Shown: one piece after another, positions 35,833-42,860 of the stretch | Layout of the letters: each line of letters begins with the position of its first letter | Numbering within the stretch: the first letter of the stretch is position 1 | DNA from: Chloropicon primus | Lineage: Eukaryota | NCBI GenBank assembly: GCA_023205875.1 | Contig: CP060758.1 | Coordinates: forward strand, 62,001-126,000 | Length of the DNA: 64,000 nucleotides | Direction of reading: 5' to 3' | Program-made: the position numbers and the translations under genes | Notes under the pieces: model-generated | Databases searched by the model: none | Told to the model about the DNA's origin: nothing | What the model saw: the letters and a program-made list of their open reading frames with translations, nothing else

Positions 35833-36721
35833 GGTCTCTCCCTCTTCCAAGGAGAGGAGTCGGTCGTCTTCCGCTGTCCCCTCTCTTCCGTTCTGGGCAA
35901 CAGAACGCGGCGGGCGTTGCTCGGCCTCGCAATGGATTCCCTCGTGCCCCCCAACCCCCTCCTCGCGCGCCTCGTCCTCTCCCTCCCTCCTCCGCCCGAT
36001 GCGAACCCTTCCTCCTCCTTCCTCCTTCACCTCCCCCGCTCGGGCTTTCCCATCTCAATCCCAGGAACGAGGGCGAGGAGAGGCAAGGTGATGGATGGAT
36101 GGTTGGGGAGGGGAGGACAGGGCAGGGGAGGGCAGGGAAGTGATCTCTCTCTCTCTCTCTCTTTCATTCACACACACACTATGTGGATCCCTATCCCTCA
36201 GCCTTGCCGTGCTCAAGGTTTTGATCAAGAGGAGGGAGGGAGGGCTTGGCTTCCCTGGAGAAGGAGGGAAGCAGACGGTCCCCGTGCTCAGCAACGCAGG
36301 GAGAGGGGGATCACGTCCCTCTCCATGTATGTGTGTGTGTGTGTGTGCGCGTGCGTGCGTGTGGAGAATGGTGAAGGGCCAACACTGATGGTGATGGTGA
36401 TGGTGAAGAGGAATCGGGCAAGTCTCACCAGACTGGTCGGACTCGAGCAACAAGACAACCTCCTGGTTTTGTTCTCTTGTCCACCTGATCCTGCCTCCTT
36501 GCATGAAGAGCGGAAACAACACGTTCCATAAGCCGGTAAAAAGAAGAAGAAGTGGATAGGTAGGTAGGTAGGCATAAACCACCACACATTACCACTCCTC
36601 TCCCCAACCATCATGCCCCCTCCCTCCTCATCCATCATGCCTCCTCCTCATCCATCATGATTGAGCGCCAGGTGGATTCCGATTTTCACTTTTTGGATAG
36701 AGTCGCTCTCGCCTCTCCGCG

Positions 36722-37943
36722 ATGAGGGTTAGCAGGACAACCTTGAGGCCTCGAGGGGTGAAGCAGAGCGCGCGAGCGAGCGCATCCTCCTCCTCCTCCT
36801 CCTCCTCCTCCTCCCCCTCGGCTCCTCCTCCCCTCCACCGCGTCGAGCGGAGGAAAGGCTTGCGACTGCAAGCGACGGAAAGAGCTGGTGATGGCGTTGT
36901 TGATGCTGATGGCACCAGGACGAGGAGGGGTACCTCGCTCGAGGTGAGCGGGGGGGAAGAATCGGCGATGTTCGAATGGAGTGAGGAGAGTCCGCGGAGC
37001 TGGTTCGCGTTCTTCTCGCTCCTCGCGGTGGTCTTCGCCGGCCTCTACGTGGCTTGGATAGATCCGGACTCTGGTATGGGGACGCCTTTCGTGGATGCAG
37101 TGGAGAGCATCTCAAGCAATCACGAGGTGAGTCGTCTCGGGTTCTCGGTATTGTTCGACATGGGACTGACGATGCTTTACTTGGCTCCTCTCGTGTCCTC
37201 CCAGCTTGTGATGATGATCTTGCTCGTGATCTTTGGAGTGGCACACAGCGGCCTCGCTGCGCTGAGGCCTGCGGGAGAGAAGCTGGTTGGGGAGCGGGCC
37301 TACAGGGTGGGGTTTGCCCTCGTCAGTCTGCCTCTGGCCTTGACGACGGTGATGTACTTCATAAATCATCGGTACTCCGGGATTCCGTTGTACGACCTGA
37401 GGGACGTTCCTGGCGTCCACGAGACGGTCTGGTTGCTTTCGTTCGCCTCCTTCTTCTTCCTTTATCCATCCACCTTTAACATTCTTGAAGTGGCCGCGGT
37501 GGACGTGCCCAAGGTTCACTTGTGGGAGACCGGCGTCATTCGAATCACGAGGCACCCTCAGGTAGGATGATCCCGCATTGCGCGAGGACTCTTCGTCCGC
37601 GCCGCTTTCGCTCCAGGCACTGATGAACGTTTTTTTGCTCCTCTCTAACGTTTCGCAGATGGTGGGGCAGGTTTTATGGTCTCTGGCGCATTGCCTCTGG
37701 ATGGGGAACTCGTTTGCGTGGGTCACCTCGTTTGGACTGTGCGCCTACCACCTGTTTGGCTGCTGGCACGGAGACCGGAGACTCCAAAGCAAGTTCGGGC
37801 CTCGTGCTTCTGTCGCGACTGGGCTCGAGGCATTGCATCGGCAATTGAATCACAATCCATTGGGATGGACATGCATGTGCGTTGTGTCTCTCGAAGAGGG
37901 AGGTCAACTTTCCTTCGCAATCATCAGAAATTTCAAAACATGA
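36722..37943 (+). CDS. Z-ISO: 15-cis-zeta-carotene isomerase (NnrU family); introns 37127-37204 and 37561-37658; C-terminus appears replaced after about 37800
   Basis: HSGLAALR..GEKLVGERAYRV, YFINHRY, FLYPSTFN.LEVAAVD.PKVHLWETG..RITRHPQ|MVGQ..W.LAH...HLFGCWHGDRRL. Confidence 0.9.
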
Positions 37944-38391
37944 TCACGTGCTCCCTCGGCCCTGGAGCTTGTTCATTGTTGTACAATGATGATCCCATTG
38001 ATGGGATGAGAGTCAAGAAAAGGAACAAGGAACCCAGGAACCCAAACCAATCTATAATATTTGTCCCTCCAGGATCCTGATAGGACATCTCCTTCTCGTT
38101 CTCGTTCTCGTTCTCGTTCTCGTTCTCGTTCTCCTTGATTCTCCCTCGCTGTTGTGGGGGGTTGATCCCAAGGACATTTTCTTGGACTTTGTGCAGGATT
38201 AGGCGAGACGCGTGGCCCAGAGGAGAGACAGAGACGAGAACAGGAACGAAAGAGAAGCAAGCGAGGAAGACCAAGCAAGCGAAGGGATCCAGGAGCACGA
38301 GGGGGATCGGACCTTGTGGACCAAGACACGGCCAAGAGGCCCAGCAACCCACCTTTGCGTCCCTTCCCTCGAAACACGAGGTCGAGGTATC

Positions 38392-40576
38392 ATGGAAAGG
38401 GAGAGGAGAAGGTTCAGTGTGAAGCCCTGTGGGGGAGTCGTTTTTATGTAAGTAGACGAAACCGAGGAACGCGACAAGGGATGCGGGTATGGAGCGAGGG
38501 TATGCAGAGGGGTTTGGGGAGTACGCTAGGGGTTCTCTTCGAATCAAGATGCCCATCTTTGGACCGAGAACCAAACTTTTTTCCGTCTCTATCTTGGGTT
38601 GTGGTGGATACCTTGGCCGTGGGAAGCTTTTCCTTTCGTTAGCGCGCTGGACTCCCTTGACTTCACCCTCTGATACAAATGTTCGCTTCGCTCTGCTTTT
38701 CTTTTCATCACAGAATCGACACGTCCGCGTCCATGCTGAATGGGGACTTTGGGCCATCGCGATGGGTGGCACAGAAGGTGAGTCTCGCGCGATGAAAACC
38801 GCGTCAAGGAAGAAGAAGAAAGACCAACGAAAAAAACCAAGAGACCAAGGACTGACAATCACCTCGCGTGCTCTTAAAGACTCTGGTGCAGAACATCTGC
38901 GACTCGATATTGTCCGGGTCGCCTGAGAAGCAGCTGTCGAGCTTCTTCGGCCTGGTTCACTCCAACACCAGCAAGACGGCCTTGGGAGTCCTCCCGTGCA
39001 AAGGGAATTATCTCTCCCTGATGGAATCGCTCGAGAGCTTGACGTACAACGCGGAAGAAGACAACTCGATCGACTTGTCCAAGTCTTTGAGACTCCTCAA
39101 GGTATGCTGGTCCCACTCCATCGCCCTGTTCTTGCTTGAGCCAAGCGGCACTAACGTCGGCAAATCGCGACTCCTCAGCTCTCTCTCAAACAAGAAGGAA
39201 GGGCTCCACCGAGGGTGGTCATCCTCACCTCAAGCGTCCCCTCTTGCGAGGAGCCACTCGTCAAGATCTCTGACAAGGTTGGCAGAGTGGACTGCATTTA
39301 CTTGAGAGGTGCGAACGAGAACGCAGAAGAGGAGGCGGACATGCGCGAGTACTGCGCTCAGCATTTTGGGAAGCTTTTGTGTTTGGATCCATTTGACGCA
39401 TACGGGCAGGAGACCTGGGAGTGGCAGGAGGACTTGCTTTGTCAGCTCGCCCTATCCCACAAGGAGCGCTCCTGTCCGTTCGATTTCAATGCCGAGGAGG
39501 GGAGCACGAGGTTCTCCCACCAACGGGGCTTGCGGTTTCCCGATCCCCATGGAAAGTCCAGGTCGACAATGAAAATGGTGGACTCTTGCCGAGGGGAGAG
39601 CCTGGACAGCTACCAGCACTTGAGCTCGGACGGGTTTGCGCATTCGTGGCTGCCATCGTACAGCAACCTGGCTAAGAAGTACGAAGAGAAGGTGCTGCCT
39701 GGTGCCTGGTACCTGGTGATCATGGACTCTCTGTGCAAGTGGCAGACCGTTTTCTCCTGCAAGGCTGGACGGATGGTTTCCAAGGCCAGCAGACATGAGC
39801 CCGGCAAGAGAGTCCTGGAGCCCAGGCCGAGGAGAGGCCTCCTGAAGCTGCTTTACTCTGCCGACATCGACTCGTGGTGCATGCAGTGGAAGCAGGATGA
39901 CGAGTCTGAGGTGGTGCAGGGTCTGCCGCCATTGGTGGCGAGGGAAAGGGAGCCCGAGGACGAGCTCTCGATCAGGTTCACGGGTCCATCGAAGATCAAA
40001 TTGGAGGCCGTGCCCTGCGAAACGGGTGAGGTCATAGGAGCTCACTTAGTTTCGACCCCGTACAAGAGGCAGCACGTCTTCTTTTGGCTGCAGGAGGAGT
40101 TCACCTCGGAGCACGGGGGAGGGGCCAAGGGCCTGGTGAGAAAGCTAGAGGATGCGATTCGGAAGGAGGGTCAGGAGCACACCAGCTCGAGCAGGAACCC
40201 ACTCCTCACGATAGGTTCGGAGAAGATACAGTTTGAGAGTGTCCTCTTGAATCTCATGTCGTCCTGCAACAGCAAGACGCAGCAGGCTCGTTGTCCGATC
40301 TCCGGAAAGAGGGGAGATGGGGGAATGCTGAACGCCAAGGAGAGCAACGAGTCTGAAATGGGCGCGATGGAGGAAGAGGATGACCTAGACAAGGGCTTCT
40401 ATAGCTGGACAGCAAAACTTGACGCGGACCTGACAGATGTTGAGAGGAAGCTTGGCTCAGAATCTAACTTGGCTCAGATGCAGACCTCTCACAAGGCGCC
40501 TCCCACGGCTGCTGGCGTCCCCCCAGGAACAGAGGTGAACGAGGAGGACTCCTCCATGCTATTCGAGTTGGACTGA
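38392..40576 (+). CDS. RPN10-like vWA domain fused to RPN13-like Pru domain; introns 38448-38713, 38778-38879, 39102-39178
   Basis: Spliced VVFIIDTSASMLNGDFGPSRWVAQK|TLVQNIC...PE...|LSLKQ...RVVILTSS, and later FSCKAGRM...RVLEPRPRRGLLKL...CMQWK...FFWLQE. Confidence 0.72.
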
Positions 40577-40672
40577 TTACTGTAAAGCCCCTTGTATTTT
40601 TAATCTCTCTATATATATTATTAACGGACATGTCGTTGGAAAGCCATATCTTACAACGATGTTGATAAAGGT

Positions 40673-42274
40673 TCACACGTCGGCAGGAGATTCCCACTCG
40701 TCGATTTCCGACTCAGCAGGGTCTTCTACCGGGTTGCGGCGCGTTGACATCTGCCGCTTTCGCCTAGGCGCGCGAGAAGTCTGCTCGTCCCTCTTCCTCT
40801 TCGCATCCTCCTCTCGCTTCTGATTCAGCTTCCTTTGTTTATCTCGTTCCGCTCGTCCTCGCTCCCGTTCCAACCTTTTCTTCTGAGATTCGAGGGCCGT
40901 GGTTACCTTCTTGAGCCTCTTGGTCAGTCCATCTGTATTGGGCCAATCATCATCTGCCTTGGACTCTTCCACTGGTTCTTTTCCCTCCGCAGACCCATTC
41001 TTCGCATCTTGCTCCTCCTTCTCGCGCTTCTTTCGAGTGTGGACGCAAGACACGCATTGGCAGCCCTCTTTGTGCCTAAACTGCTCCCTCTTCTTCAAGT
41101 TGGCCTCCACGTTGGTCTCATCACGGGTAAAAGCCTCTGCGTACTCGGGGTCGTTCCTGATCTTATCGAACGCCCCGTAGCCGTGCTTGTAGACGCCAAA
41201 GAGCAAGGCCTTGTCCGCTGCCGTGGACCACCATTCAATTGGAGGCGAGCTGTCCGCCATGGTGGCCATCAGGTCTTCGAACTGTTCGATTTTGGACTCA
41301 TCCATACCCATCAGAGCAGCTTCATTGATCAAATCCATAAGCCTCAGCTTTCTCAGCCACGACAACCCAAGCTTGTCTATTTTCGGCCAAGGGTTCGAGA
41401 GCTCCGGGATCGCTATGGCGCCTTCCTCCTTGTACTCACTAATCTTGCGGATAGCGAAGGCGTCCTCCTTAGGCACGGGGCCGGGGCGAGCTGCTCCTGC
41501 GCCCTTCTTCCCCTCCCCCGTCGCCCCCTCCCCGTCTTCCCCCTCCTTCTCTTGCTTCTCCTTCTCCTTTTTCAACTTGGCCTCCCTCAGCTGATCCTGA
41601 GACTCCTTGAGAGCCACGAGCAAGGTGTAGGTCAAGTTGCGTATGTCGTGCACGCCGTGAACCAGCTGCGTGTGCTCCTCCAGGAGCTGCTTCTGGATCC
41701 TCCCCCACTCTCCCATCCCGTACGTCAGGAGGATCTTCCTCAGCTTGTCCTGCTCGTACTTCCTCCACTCCTTGCCAGTGCTCTCCGGAATGTCCTTCTG
41801 CAAAGACCAGCCCACCTTCTTGTTGCAGGGCCTGTTCTTCGTCCCCAGCTCCACCCCGTGCCCACTGGTGCCGTTAGGATACAAGTTCTTCGCCTTGGCC
41901 TCCTTCTTCGCCATCCTTTGCCTCTGCCTGCTCCTCCTCTTCAAATCATCACGCCACTTCCGCTGGTCCACTTGAATCCTCTCCAGCTTGCTCTTCGTTT
42001 GCCTCTCCAGCAGTTCCGCCCACAACTCGATCCCACGTTTCCGTCGCGAAGGGTCACTCCCCAACCCACGCGAAGAAGACAAAACCCTTTCGTAGACATC
42101 TTCCAGCTTCTCCGTCTCTATGGCGGACACGGACACGCCCTCCGTTCCGTCCACCTCCTCCCACAGCCCCTCCGTCATCCTCCCTCCCCTCAAGAAGCTT
42201 CGGCTTCGCTTCAACGACGACCGCCACACCCCAACGCCTCGACTCCCTTCCGCTTCCTCCAAATCCCCATCCAT
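40673..42274 (-). CDS. CHD-remodeler C-terminal (SANT/SLIDE-like) region without ATPase
   Basis: W..YEQDKLRKILLTYGMGEWGRI, WWSTAADKALLFGVYKHGYGAFDKIRNDP, WPNTDGLTKRLKK resemble CHD6-9-type C-terminal motifs. Start uncertain. Confidence 0.7.
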   Translation of the reverse strand: MDGDLEEAEGSRGVGVWRSSLKRSRSFLRGGRMTEGLWEEVDGTEGVSVSAIETEKLEDVYERVLSSSRGLGSDPSRRKRGIELWAELLERQTKSKLERIQVDQRKWRDDLKRRSRQRQRMAKKEAKAKNLYPNGTSGHGVELGTKNRPCNKKVGWSLQKDIPESTGKEWRKYEQDKLRKILLTYGMGEWGRIQKQLLEEHTQLVHGVHDIRNLTYTLLVALKESQDQLREAKLKKEKEKQEKEGEDGEGATGEGKKGAGAARPGPVPKEDAFAIRKISEYKEEGAIAIPELSNPWPKIDKLGLSWLRKLRLMDLINEAALMGMDESKIEQFEDLMATMADSSPPIEWWSTAADKALLFGVYKHGYGAFDKIRNDPEYAEAFTRDETNVEANLKKREQFRHKEGCQCVSCVHTRKKREKEEQDAKNGSAEGKEPVEESKADDDWPNTDGLTKRLKKVTTALESQKKRLERERGRAERDKQRKLNQKREEDAKRKRDEQTSRAPRRKRQMSTRRNPVEDPAESEIDEWESPADV

Positions 42275-42294
42275 CAGTGGAGGAGGCCAGGCAT

Positions 42295-42325
<31 letters not shown>

Positions 42326-42677
42326 TGTGTCAGAGTGTGAGAGGGTGAGGGTGGTGGAGGACAATACAATGTCTGCATCCTTCACCACCATTCATCATGA
42401 CTACGCTTCCGCTTCCTCCAAATCCCCATCCCCATCGAGGATCAGAGGAGGATGAGGCATCATCCATCATCAGTGGAGGAGGCCAGGCATGAGAGAGAGA
42501 AAGAGAGAGAGAGACTGTGTGTCAGAGTGTGAGAGGATGAGGGTGGTGGAGGACAATACAATGTCTGCATCCTTCACCACCATTCATCATGACTACGCTT
42601 CCGCTTCCTCCAAATCCCCATCCCCATCGAGGATCAGAGGAGGATGAGGCATCATCCATCAGTGGAGGAGGCCAGGC

Positions 42678-42713
<36 letters not shown>

Positions 42714-42860
42714 GTGTCAGAGTGTGAGAGGGTGAGGGTGGTGGAGGACAATACAATGTCTGCATCCTTCACCACCATTCATCATGACTACGCTTCCGCT
42801 TCCTCCAAATCCTCATCCCCATCGAGGATCAGATCAGCATCATCCATCATCAGTGGATGA
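42247..42860. repeat. ~190-bp tandem repeat (about 3.2 copies) with embedded (GA)n of variable length
   Basis: ACAATACAATGTCTGCATCC at about 42361, 42553 and 42749. Confidence 0.92.

What the first reader, a model, noticed from the sequence alone, without database searches (positions are those of the whole stretch)
38392..40576. Fusion of domains from two proteasomal ubiquitin receptors: RPN10-like vWA plus RPN13-like Pru
Seen: three canonical, phase-consistent introns assemble an N-terminal IIDTSASMLNGDFGPSRWVAQ...LSLKQ..RVVILTSS, hidden from the ORF track. It parallels RPN10 (CIDNSEWMRNGDY.PSR..AQ...LALKHR...RIIVF.GS). The last exon holds FSCKAGRM...PRPRRGLLKL...QWK...FFWLQE, which parallels the RPN13 Pru domain (F.AGKM...PD.RKGL...W...FFWMQE). 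No UIMs or DEUBAD domain are evident. Known: RPN10 and RPN13 are normally separate 19S subunits. Inference: a divergent hybrid receptor in which Pru may replace the UIMs. I do not know of a characterised example.
Basis: partly seen in the sequence, partly recalled or inferred. Interest (0 to 1): 0.7.

Follow-up and report, generated by a model that had tools for sequence, protein, structure and literature searches.

The report
Green algal RPN10-RPN13 chimeric protein family
This green-algal gene joins the docking domains of two normally separate proteasome ubiquitin receptors in one protein, is kept across green algae beside the ordinary receptors, has lost the known ubiquitin-gripping parts, and likely works as an uncharacterised proteasome adaptor rather than as a ubiquitin receptor.

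Summary
Observation confirmed. Four exons (38392-40576) give a 579-aa protein identical to Chloropicon primus A3770_05p35910. All three introns recur, same place and phase, in a C. roscoffensis-like locus. Pfam VWA_2 and Rpn13 Pru pass their cut-offs. A family profile hits only RPN10 (E 6e-20) and RPN13 Pru (E about 9e-4) in the PDB.

The gene belongs to an undescribed family, named in 15 chlorophyte species of three classes, including Chlamydomonas reinhardtii Cre10.g431500. Its layout: vWA, a new conserved 35-residue motif, Pru, and a C-terminal LF[DE]LD tail. One annotated transcriptome ORF spans the whole chain.

Canonical RPN10 and RPN13 genes are both still present. No UIM or DEUBAD is found, the Pru ubiquitin-binding residues (L56, F76, D79, F98) are replaced, and the Chlamydomonas gene is not co-regulated with 19S genes. 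So Pru probably does not replace the UIMs.

Best reading (0.40, inferred): a ubiquitin-blind, sub-stoichiometric adaptor that docks on the 19S particle and brings its own partners. Binding is untested.

The parts
38392..38447 (+). Exon 1 (start codon; first strand of the vWA begins here)
   Evidence: homologous exon in L001 3743-3783
38448..38713 (+). Intron 1, 266 nt, GT-AG, phase 2
   Evidence: same position and phase in L001
38714..38777 (+). Exon 2; holds D21 (38718-38720), the equivalent of RPN10 D11, and the RPN10-like NGD-x-x-P-x-R loop
38778..38879 (+). Intron 2, 102 nt, GT-AG, phase 0
38880..39101 (+). Exon 3 (middle of the vWA)
39102..39178 (+). Intron 3, 77 nt, GT-AG, phase 0
39179..40576 (+). 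Exon 4: end of the vWA, signature motif, Pru, tail and stop; part of the vWA and the whole Pru lie in this one exon
38431..39451 (+). RPN10-derived vWA domain, residues about 14-205 (interrupted by the three introns)
   Evidence: Pfam VWA_2 46 bits; family profile against RPN10 E 6e-20; VIA-align Z 18.3, rmsd 2.9, 182 aligned to Arabidopsis RPN10 vWA
39578..39685 (+). Family signature motif, residues 248-283 (CRxESLDxxxHLSxDGxxxxWxPxYxN); no Pfam or PDB match
   Evidence: 30-34 of 36 identical in five relatives; 12 invariant columns in 16 rows; no library match
39737..40174 (+). RPN13-derived Pru domain, residues 301-446, with insertions and without the FPDD ubiquitin-binding loop
   Evidence: Pfam 29.1 bits; PDB alignment to human RPN13; model pLDDT mostly 76-97 by block; Foldseek 5v1y E 1.3e-6
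40223..40267 (+). Conserved predicted helix after the Pru (residues 463-477); no DEUBAD match
   Evidence: possible descent from the RPN13 segment before DEUBAD is recalled, not tested
40559..40573 (+). C-terminal LFELD tail ending in a free aspartate
   Evidence: 19 of 24 representatives end in [LM][FY][ED]xD

Best explanation
The gene encodes one protein made of an RPN10-derived vWA domain and an RPN13-derived Pru domain, kept across green algae beside canonical RPN10 and RPN13, and it likely acts as a ubiquitin-blind, sub-stoichiometric adaptor on the 19S particle. Shown: gene structure, origin of both domains, family range, coexistence with the canonical genes, no UIM or DEUBAD match, replaced Pru ubiquitin-binding residues, conserved new motif and tail. 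Inferred step 1: copies of RPN10 and RPN13 fused once, no later than the common ancestor of Chloropicophyceae and core chlorophytes. Inferred step 2: the vWA would take the RPN10 seat at RPN8/RPN9, and the Pru may also touch the RPN2 tail through a long flexible linker. Inferred step 3: having no known ubiquitin or UCH37 site, it would bring partners of its own through the 35-residue motif and the tail; the tail is predicted to bind a TPR carboxylate clamp, as the DMSLD end of human RPN13 binds SGTA. It would thus re-tool or position a subset of proteasomes.
For: Both domains trace only to 19S subunits: profile A5 (30 rows) matched 16 PDB sequences at E<=10, 9 RPN10 and 7 RPN13, nothing else. 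D11, needed for RPN10 assembly into the 26S in Arabidopsis (PMC11546751), is kept in 18 of 18 rows with a readable first strand (21 non-gap rows, 3 set aside as misaligned fragments). The human RPN2-contact residues M31, C88 and E111 map to M313, C394 and E420 of P0001; across 32 rows M 22 of 28, C 9 of 19, E or Q 22 of 25 non-gap cells. Ubiquitin side: F76/D78/D79 align to consensus s/t/r and F98 to l; L56 is L in 2 of 28 rows; 22 of 23 rows with a whole Pru lack any FP[DE] and the one hit lies in an insert. Tail conserved in 19 of 24; SGTA-DMSLD clamp from PMC5101480; C. primus has HOP- and CHIP-annotated TPR genes. Purifying selection against L001: dN 0.51, dS 1.37 overall, dN 0.16 in the motif (near saturation). 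Tree groups follow algal classes. The C. reinhardtii gene is transcribed at all six stages, 6-15 RPKM.
Against: No binding is shown. In Arabidopsis RPN13, F67 and F88 (human F76, F98) are needed for RPN2 binding too, while M22 and E101 (M31, E111) are not; both phenylalanines are lost here, which weakens the Pru-RPN2 step. D11 also stabilises the fold, so keeping it does not prove lid docking. The RPN10 KHR stretch is not kept in the family consensus. Cre10.g431500 peaks in the dark (phase 16) while RPN3, RPN8 and RPT3 peak in the light (phase 7.5-8); in 7-day zygotes it is back at its vegetative level while RPN10 and RPN13 have risen about 4- to 7-fold. It is not listed in a proteome table that lists RPN10 and RPN13. 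One C. viridis model (P0149) has vWA, motif and tail but no Pru. No SGTA-annotated gene was found in the part of the C. primus table that is held.
Confidence: 0.4

Rival explanations
1. The chimera has left the proteasome and is a scaffold in another complex, as related vWA domains serve in TFIIH (p44), Integrator (INTS14) and BRCA1-A; the new motif and tail are its main working surfaces.
For: Not co-regulated with 19S genes. The most conserved part is the new motif, not either proteasome-derived domain. F76 and F98 equivalents lost. p44 and INTS14 vWA domains score within about 1.5 Z of RPN10 against the model.
Against: Both folded domains come from the same machine and have been kept together in 14 of 15 named species. 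RPN10- and RPN13-specific sequence signals persist.
Confidence: 0.3
2. It is a free decoy or assembly factor: it binds lid or RPN2 intermediates, or competes with RPN10 and RPN13 for their seats, and is absent from working 26S. The tail may fold back into its own Pru as a mimic of the RPN2 end.
For: Docking folds kept, receptor sites lost. Expression runs opposite to 19S genes over the day. The tail F-E-L resembles human RPN2 F948-E949-Y950-I951, the Pru-binding segment (PMC4605517).
Against: The better model leaves the tail at pLDDT under 50, so fold-back is not predicted. An assembly factor would be expected to rise with the subunits.
Confidence: 0.15
3. One reading: a hybrid ubiquitin receptor seated through the vWA, with the Pru catching ubiquitin in place of the UIMs.
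For: Correct Pru fold. Yeast RPN13 binds ubiquitin weakly with a diverged loop (recalled, not checked). The RPN10 vWA itself carries a weak ubiquitin patch (PMC5059453), which I did not map onto this family.
Against: L56, F76, D79 and F98 are replaced, D79 often by R or K. Canonical RPN10 and RPN13 are retained.
Confidence: 0.12
4. Gene-model artefact: two neighbouring genes joined by a predictor.
For: No spliced read or contig across the three introns was obtained for this organism. The published depth of 3.59 could come from the convergent neighbour's transcript, which covers the last 183 coding bases.
Against: The second half of the vWA and the whole Pru lie in one stop-free exon. Same introns in L001. 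The MMETSP transcript ORF of Chlamydomonas leiostraca (P0065) runs from the first vWA strand to the tail. Same order in 14 named species.
Confidence: 0.02

Closest known systems
RPN10 / PSMD4 / S5a (19S lid-associated ubiquitin receptor)
   Same: N-terminal vWA alignable over its full length (human residues 7-179, E about 1e-19); D11 kept; core chlorophyte members begin with C-x-D-N-S-E/D like RPN10; best structural match.
   Different: No UIM match; KHR stretch not kept; followed by a new motif and a Pru; a canonical RPN10 gene exists beside it.
RPN13 / ADRM1 (RPN2-bound ubiquitin receptor)
   Same: Pru fold with AGRM, PDxRxG, W and FFW[LM]Q landmarks; ends in hydrophobic-x-L-D with a free aspartate, like human DMSLD.
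   Different: Pru is internal and carries insertions, up to hundreds of residues in some algae; L56, F76, D79, F98 replaced; no RPN13_C/DEUBAD match; a canonical RPN13 gene exists beside it.
Non-proteasomal vWA relatives (TFIIH p44/Ssl1, INTS14, BRCA1-A vWA subunit)
   Same: Same fold; Z 16.6-17.2 for p44 and INTS14; Pfam Ssl1 19.7 bits, under its cut-off of 27.
   Different: None matched the family profile at E<=10; none is known to me to carry a Pru (recalled).

Membership tests
RPN10/PSMD4 | N-terminal RPN10-type vWA domain with D11 | tested here: met
RPN10/PSMD4 | C-terminal UIMs | tested here: not met
   No Pfam UIM in P0001 and 6 relatives at E<=10, 9 more at E<=1, 32 hits at E<=0.01; a pattern scan without a positive control found none in P0001
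RPN10/PSMD4 | Incorporation into the 19S at RPN8/RPN9 | not testable with these tools
RPN10/PSMD4 | Is the genome's RPN10 orthologue | tested here: not met
   A3770_05p40180 is the K03029 gene with green-algal hits at E 1e-56 to 1e-110; 05p35910 has none at 1e-10
RPN13/ADRM1 | Pru domain | tested here: met
   Pfam over cut-off in P0001, P0002, P0003, P0023 and under it in P0036, P0005, P0037
RPN13/ADRM1 | Ubiquitin-binding residues L56, F76, D79, F98 | tested here: not met
   Residues from PMC11546751; mapping; sequence test only
RPN13/ADRM1 | RPN2-binding surface | tested here: inconclusive
   Human contacts M31, C88, E111 kept in P0001 and partly in the family; plant-critical F76 and F98 equivalents lost
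RPN13/ADRM1 | DEUBAD (RPN13_C) domain for UCH37 | tested here: not met
   No RPN13_C match; region mostly pLDDT under 50 in the model
RPN13/ADRM1 | C-terminal carboxylate-clamp pentapeptide | tested here: inconclusive
   Tail conserved and similar in form to DMSLD; homology and binding untested
TFIIH p44/Ssl1 | Ssl1-type vWA with C-terminal zinc-finger domains | tested here: not met
   Ssl1 under cut-off and no zinc-finger family matched; no p44 hit to profile A5

The most novel reading that the evidence does not exclude
Green algae have a dedicated alternative 19S subunit that takes the RPN10 seat (and perhaps the RPN13 seat) and turns a subset of proteasomes into ubiquitin-independent or position-anchored machines. 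At its boldest, it is one of the unidentified densities that tether Chlamydomonas proteasomes to nuclear pores at RPN9, the neighbour of RPN10 (PMC5748218).
Probability: 0.12. Interest if true: 0.88.

Novelty: new variant of a known kind. Interest (0 to 1): 0.66.

Why it matters
RPN10 and RPN13 are treated as separate subunits across eukaryotes. A chimera of the two, held under purifying selection in three classes of green algae beside the intact originals, points to an unrecognised proteasome-related function in this lineage. It has dropped the known ubiquitin and UCH37 sites and gained a strongly conserved motif with no library match, so it is a natural test of what these docking domains do without ubiquitin binding. 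The C. reinhardtii orthologue Cre10.g431500 makes it testable in a genetic model where proteasome-tethering factors near RPN9 remain unidentified.

Tried and rejected
RNA support in this organism: three runs were offered. X1 shows spliced joints in nearby genes, but no contig was laid on 38392-40393 in X1, X2 or X3; contigs show presence only, so this is not taken as absence, and the introns were not confirmed by reads.

Complex prediction of vWA (10-212) with motif plus Pru (240-480): no answer, score 0.00, alignment not used; not evidence either way.

Stage-specific (sexual) expression, suggested by the low C. primus depth: rejected for C. reinhardtii, where the gene is expressed at all six stages, with a rise of about 1.5- to 2.5-fold in gametes.

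Lineage-restricted Chloropicon oddity: rejected. The published table's 'no homologue' at E 1e-10 misses Cre10.g431500, so its blanks for Mamiellophyceae and Klebsormidium prove nothing.

Metal-binding MIDAS site: P0001 has DxSxS, but L001 has DxSxN, most members lack the second serine, and the strand-4 aspartate is absent; rejected.

Canonical algal RPN10/RPN13 sequences could not be retrieved: the three homologue searches and the representative search returned none, so no tree with outgroups was built. Narrow profiles A2 and A3 found no RPN10 or RPN13 in the PDB. Viral contigs: 19 pattern matches, 0 relatives. The prokaryotic genome collection was not scanned, and no whole genome is held for this window. 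P0066, 1 of the 33 hits, has none of the family's parts and was dropped. Atlas feature scores were all under 0.9, leads only. Clathrin-box and TOS-like readings of the tail are recalled resemblances, untested.

Full report
Observation. Four exons (38392-38447, 38714-38777, 38880-39101, 39179-40576) and three GT-AG introns (266, 102, 77 nt; phases 2, 0, 0) give 579 aa, identical to the deposited Chloropicon primus protein P0001, locus A3770_05p35910, labelled hypothetical or 'VWFA domain-containing'. Locus L001 from a metagenome, about 98% identical in protein to the C. roscoffensis entry P0036, has the same three introns at the same codons and phases, with intron lengths 216, 88 and 76, and the same upstream UVRAG/ATG14-like neighbour. 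L002 is 99.7% identical to L001 and is not independent. Against L001, dN is 0.51 and dS 1.37 (NG86, near saturation). I could not confirm the junctions with reads.

Origin of the domains. P0001 passes the Pfam cut-offs for VWA_2 (46.0 bits) and Rpn13 Pru (29.1 bits); no UIM or RPN13_C appears in 7 of 7 proteins. Alone, P0001 hits RPN10 weakly (best E 0.0011; 6 of 9 hits). A 30-row family profile matched 16 PDB sequences at E<=10: 9 RPN10 (E 6e-20 to 2e-14) and 7 RPN13 Pru (E about 9e-4), nothing else. The model from that alignment (mean pLDDT 66, pTM 0.45) has a vWA whose best VIA-align match is Arabidopsis RPN10 (Z 18.3, rmsd 2.9, 182 aligned), with p44 close behind (Z 17.2), and a well-predicted Pru (Foldseek 5v1y, E 1.3e-6). 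The fold alone does not separate RPN10 from p44; the sequence profile does.

A family, not an oddity. A search of 1.84 billion representatives gave 33 hits, of which 1 (P0066) was dropped as chance. A profile of the most conserved stretch gave 48 hits among 7,994 scored candidates. Named members come from 15 species: Chloropicon primus and roscoffensis; Coccomyxa elongata, viridis and sp. Obi, Myrmecia bisecta, Micractinium tetrahymenae and Botryococcus braunii (name read from the label Botrbrau1); Chlamydomonas reinhardtii, eustigma, leiostraca and UWO 241, Volvox africanus and reticuliferus, Monoraphidium neglectum. In 14 of the 15, local profiles find vWA, motif and Pru in that order; the Monoraphidium model ends after the motif. 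The profiles were built from A5, which holds most of these; held-out P0060, P0100, P0103 and P0142 also show all three parts. A second C. viridis model (P0149) lacks the Pru. An unrooted-data tree of 32 rows and 372 columns, drawn from the midpoint, groups Chloropicon, Trebouxiophyceae and Chlorophyceae separately with modest support, which fits vertical descent from one fusion; no outgroup was available. No named streptophyte or Mamiellophyceae member turned up, but the searches were capped and P0070 and P0160 are of unknown taxon.

One chain. The second half of the vWA and the whole Pru lie in one exon. An MMETSP transcript ORF of C. leiostraca (P0065, 776 aa) runs from the first vWA strand to the tail, and one of C. 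roscoffensis (P0037) covers the end of the vWA to the tail.

An extra gene. Supplementary Data 2 of the C. primus genome paper lists separate RPN10 (A3770_05p40180) and RPN13 (A3770_05p39780) genes with clear green-algal orthologues, including Cre16.g663500 and Cre11.g469450. Average RNA-seq depth is 3.59 for the chimera, against 60.05 and 44.83 for these two and 28-49 for six other 19S genes (the paper mentions normalised cDNA libraries). A contig of run X1 covers 40394-41520, continuous with the convergent CHD7-like gene and overlapping the last 183 coding bases; that overlap alone could give a mean depth of this size. In C. reinhardtii, Cre10.g431500 runs at 3.5-7.3 over the day with phase 16, while RPN3, RPN8 and RPT3 peak in the light at phase 7.5-8; it is not in the proteome table, where RPN10 and RPN13 are. 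Across the life cycle it has 6-15 RPKM, higher than RPN13 in vegetative cells, and does not follow the zygotic rise of RPN10 and RPN13.

Anatomy. D11, required for RPN10 assembly in Arabidopsis, is kept in 18 of 18 rows with a readable first strand. Four Pru residues are reported as critical for ubiquitin binding: L56, F76, D79, F98. In the alignment to human RPN13, F76/D78/D79 face consensus s/t/r and F98 faces l; L56 is L in 2 of 28 rows; 22 of 23 rows with a whole Pru have no FP[DE], and the exception is in an insert. The human RPN2 contacts M31, C88 and E111 are kept in P0001, less so family-wide, but in Arabidopsis these are dispensable and F76 and F98 equivalents are needed for RPN2 binding, so Pru docking is open. 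Two features are new: a 35-residue motif, the best-conserved part, with no Pfam or PDB match, and a C-terminal [LM][FY][ED]xD in 19 of 24 representatives. Human RPN13 ends in DMSLD, which binds the SGTA TPR clamp through its terminal aspartate; the human RPN2 segment that binds Pru is F948-E949-Y950-I951. The tail resembles both; neither reading is tested.

Mechanism. I commit to a ubiquitin-blind adaptor that docks on a subset of 19S particles, most plausibly through the vWA, and brings partners through the motif and tail (0.40). Rivals: a scaffold outside the proteasome (0.30), a decoy or assembly factor (0.15), a true hybrid ubiquitin receptor (0.12), an artefact (0.02). All functional steps are inferred. 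It is built from RPN10 and RPN13 parts but is a member of neither family, since defining features of each were tested and not met.

Novelty. Both domains are visible in automatic annotation. I found no paper describing the chimera: searches for Chloropicon with proteasome, RPN10, RPN13, Pru, vWA and fusion, Chlamydomonas with RPN10 and RPN13, Cre10.g431500 (0 papers), and RPN13, paralog, RPN10, green algae (1 paper, in which 'fusion' does not occur). For most listed papers I saw titles and abstract starts only, and subscription journals are mostly not held. Earlier scan findings: none.

What I saw of each paper. PMC11546751: passages and section 2.6. PMC6731263: passages, file list, rows of supplements 1 and 16 (file 16 is cut at 6,460 rows of 8,639 genes; files 13-15 and 17-20 not searched). 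PMC12301720: passages and one supplement, no hit. PMC5101480, PMC5059453, PMC5748218, PMC4605517, PMC4453063: passages. PMC6369806: passages and supplement rows (Dataset S1 is cut, so RPN10 and RPN13 mRNA rows were not seen). PMC10787120: passages and supplement rows. PMC11808170: abstract and outline, not used. Unseen supplement parts may hold further RPN10- or RPN13-like or SGTA genes.

Verdict. Real, conserved and apparently undescribed; a new architecture made from known parts, with an untested function and a ready model organism. Interest 0.66.

Noticed in passing
window 36701-37943 (+): NnrU-family reading frame (Pfam 62.7 bits, profile 1-105 of 188) with a second exon from 37659 whose likeness seems to stop near 37800. 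The 2019 table has no locus tag between 05p35900 and 05p35910, and L001 shows no match at the syntenic place. Possibly an unannotated, truncated zeta-carotene isomerase-like gene (label recalled).
   Followed up: partly
window 40394-42391 (-): Convergent CHD7-like gene (05p35920) matches only C-terminal CHD pieces in Pfam; an X1 contig continuous with it overlaps the last 183 coding bases of the chimera.
   Followed up: partly
C. primus A3770_11p63160 (outside the window): Another hypothetical protein with a secondary RPN10 KEGG label, RNA depth 50.02 and no listed homologue. Secondary labels are weak; sequence not seen.
   Followed up: no
C. primus chromosome 5 (outside the window): The chimera (05p35910), UCH37 (05p39740), RPN13 (05p39780) and RPN10 (05p40180) all carry chromosome 5 locus tags; UCH37 and RPN13 are four loci apart.
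   Followed up: no
L001 3743-3783: The deposited C. roscoffensis protein P0036 starts at an internal methionine and lacks the first vWA strand with D11; L001 shows an upstream exon that supplies it.
   Followed up: yes
P0070, P0079, P0160: Unnamed family members that form their own branch outside the core chlorophyte groups; taxon unknown, so the family may reach further than the named species.
   Followed up: partly
window 38088-38134 and about 42250-42860: A GTTCTC hexamer run upstream of the gene, and several near-identical repeats of roughly 190 nt upstream of the CHD7-like gene.
   Followed up: no
P0001 residues 516-537 (window 40382-40447): A further conserved segment (20 of 22 identical with L001) seen only in the Chloropicon-like group and P0057, partly helical in the model.
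   Followed up: no
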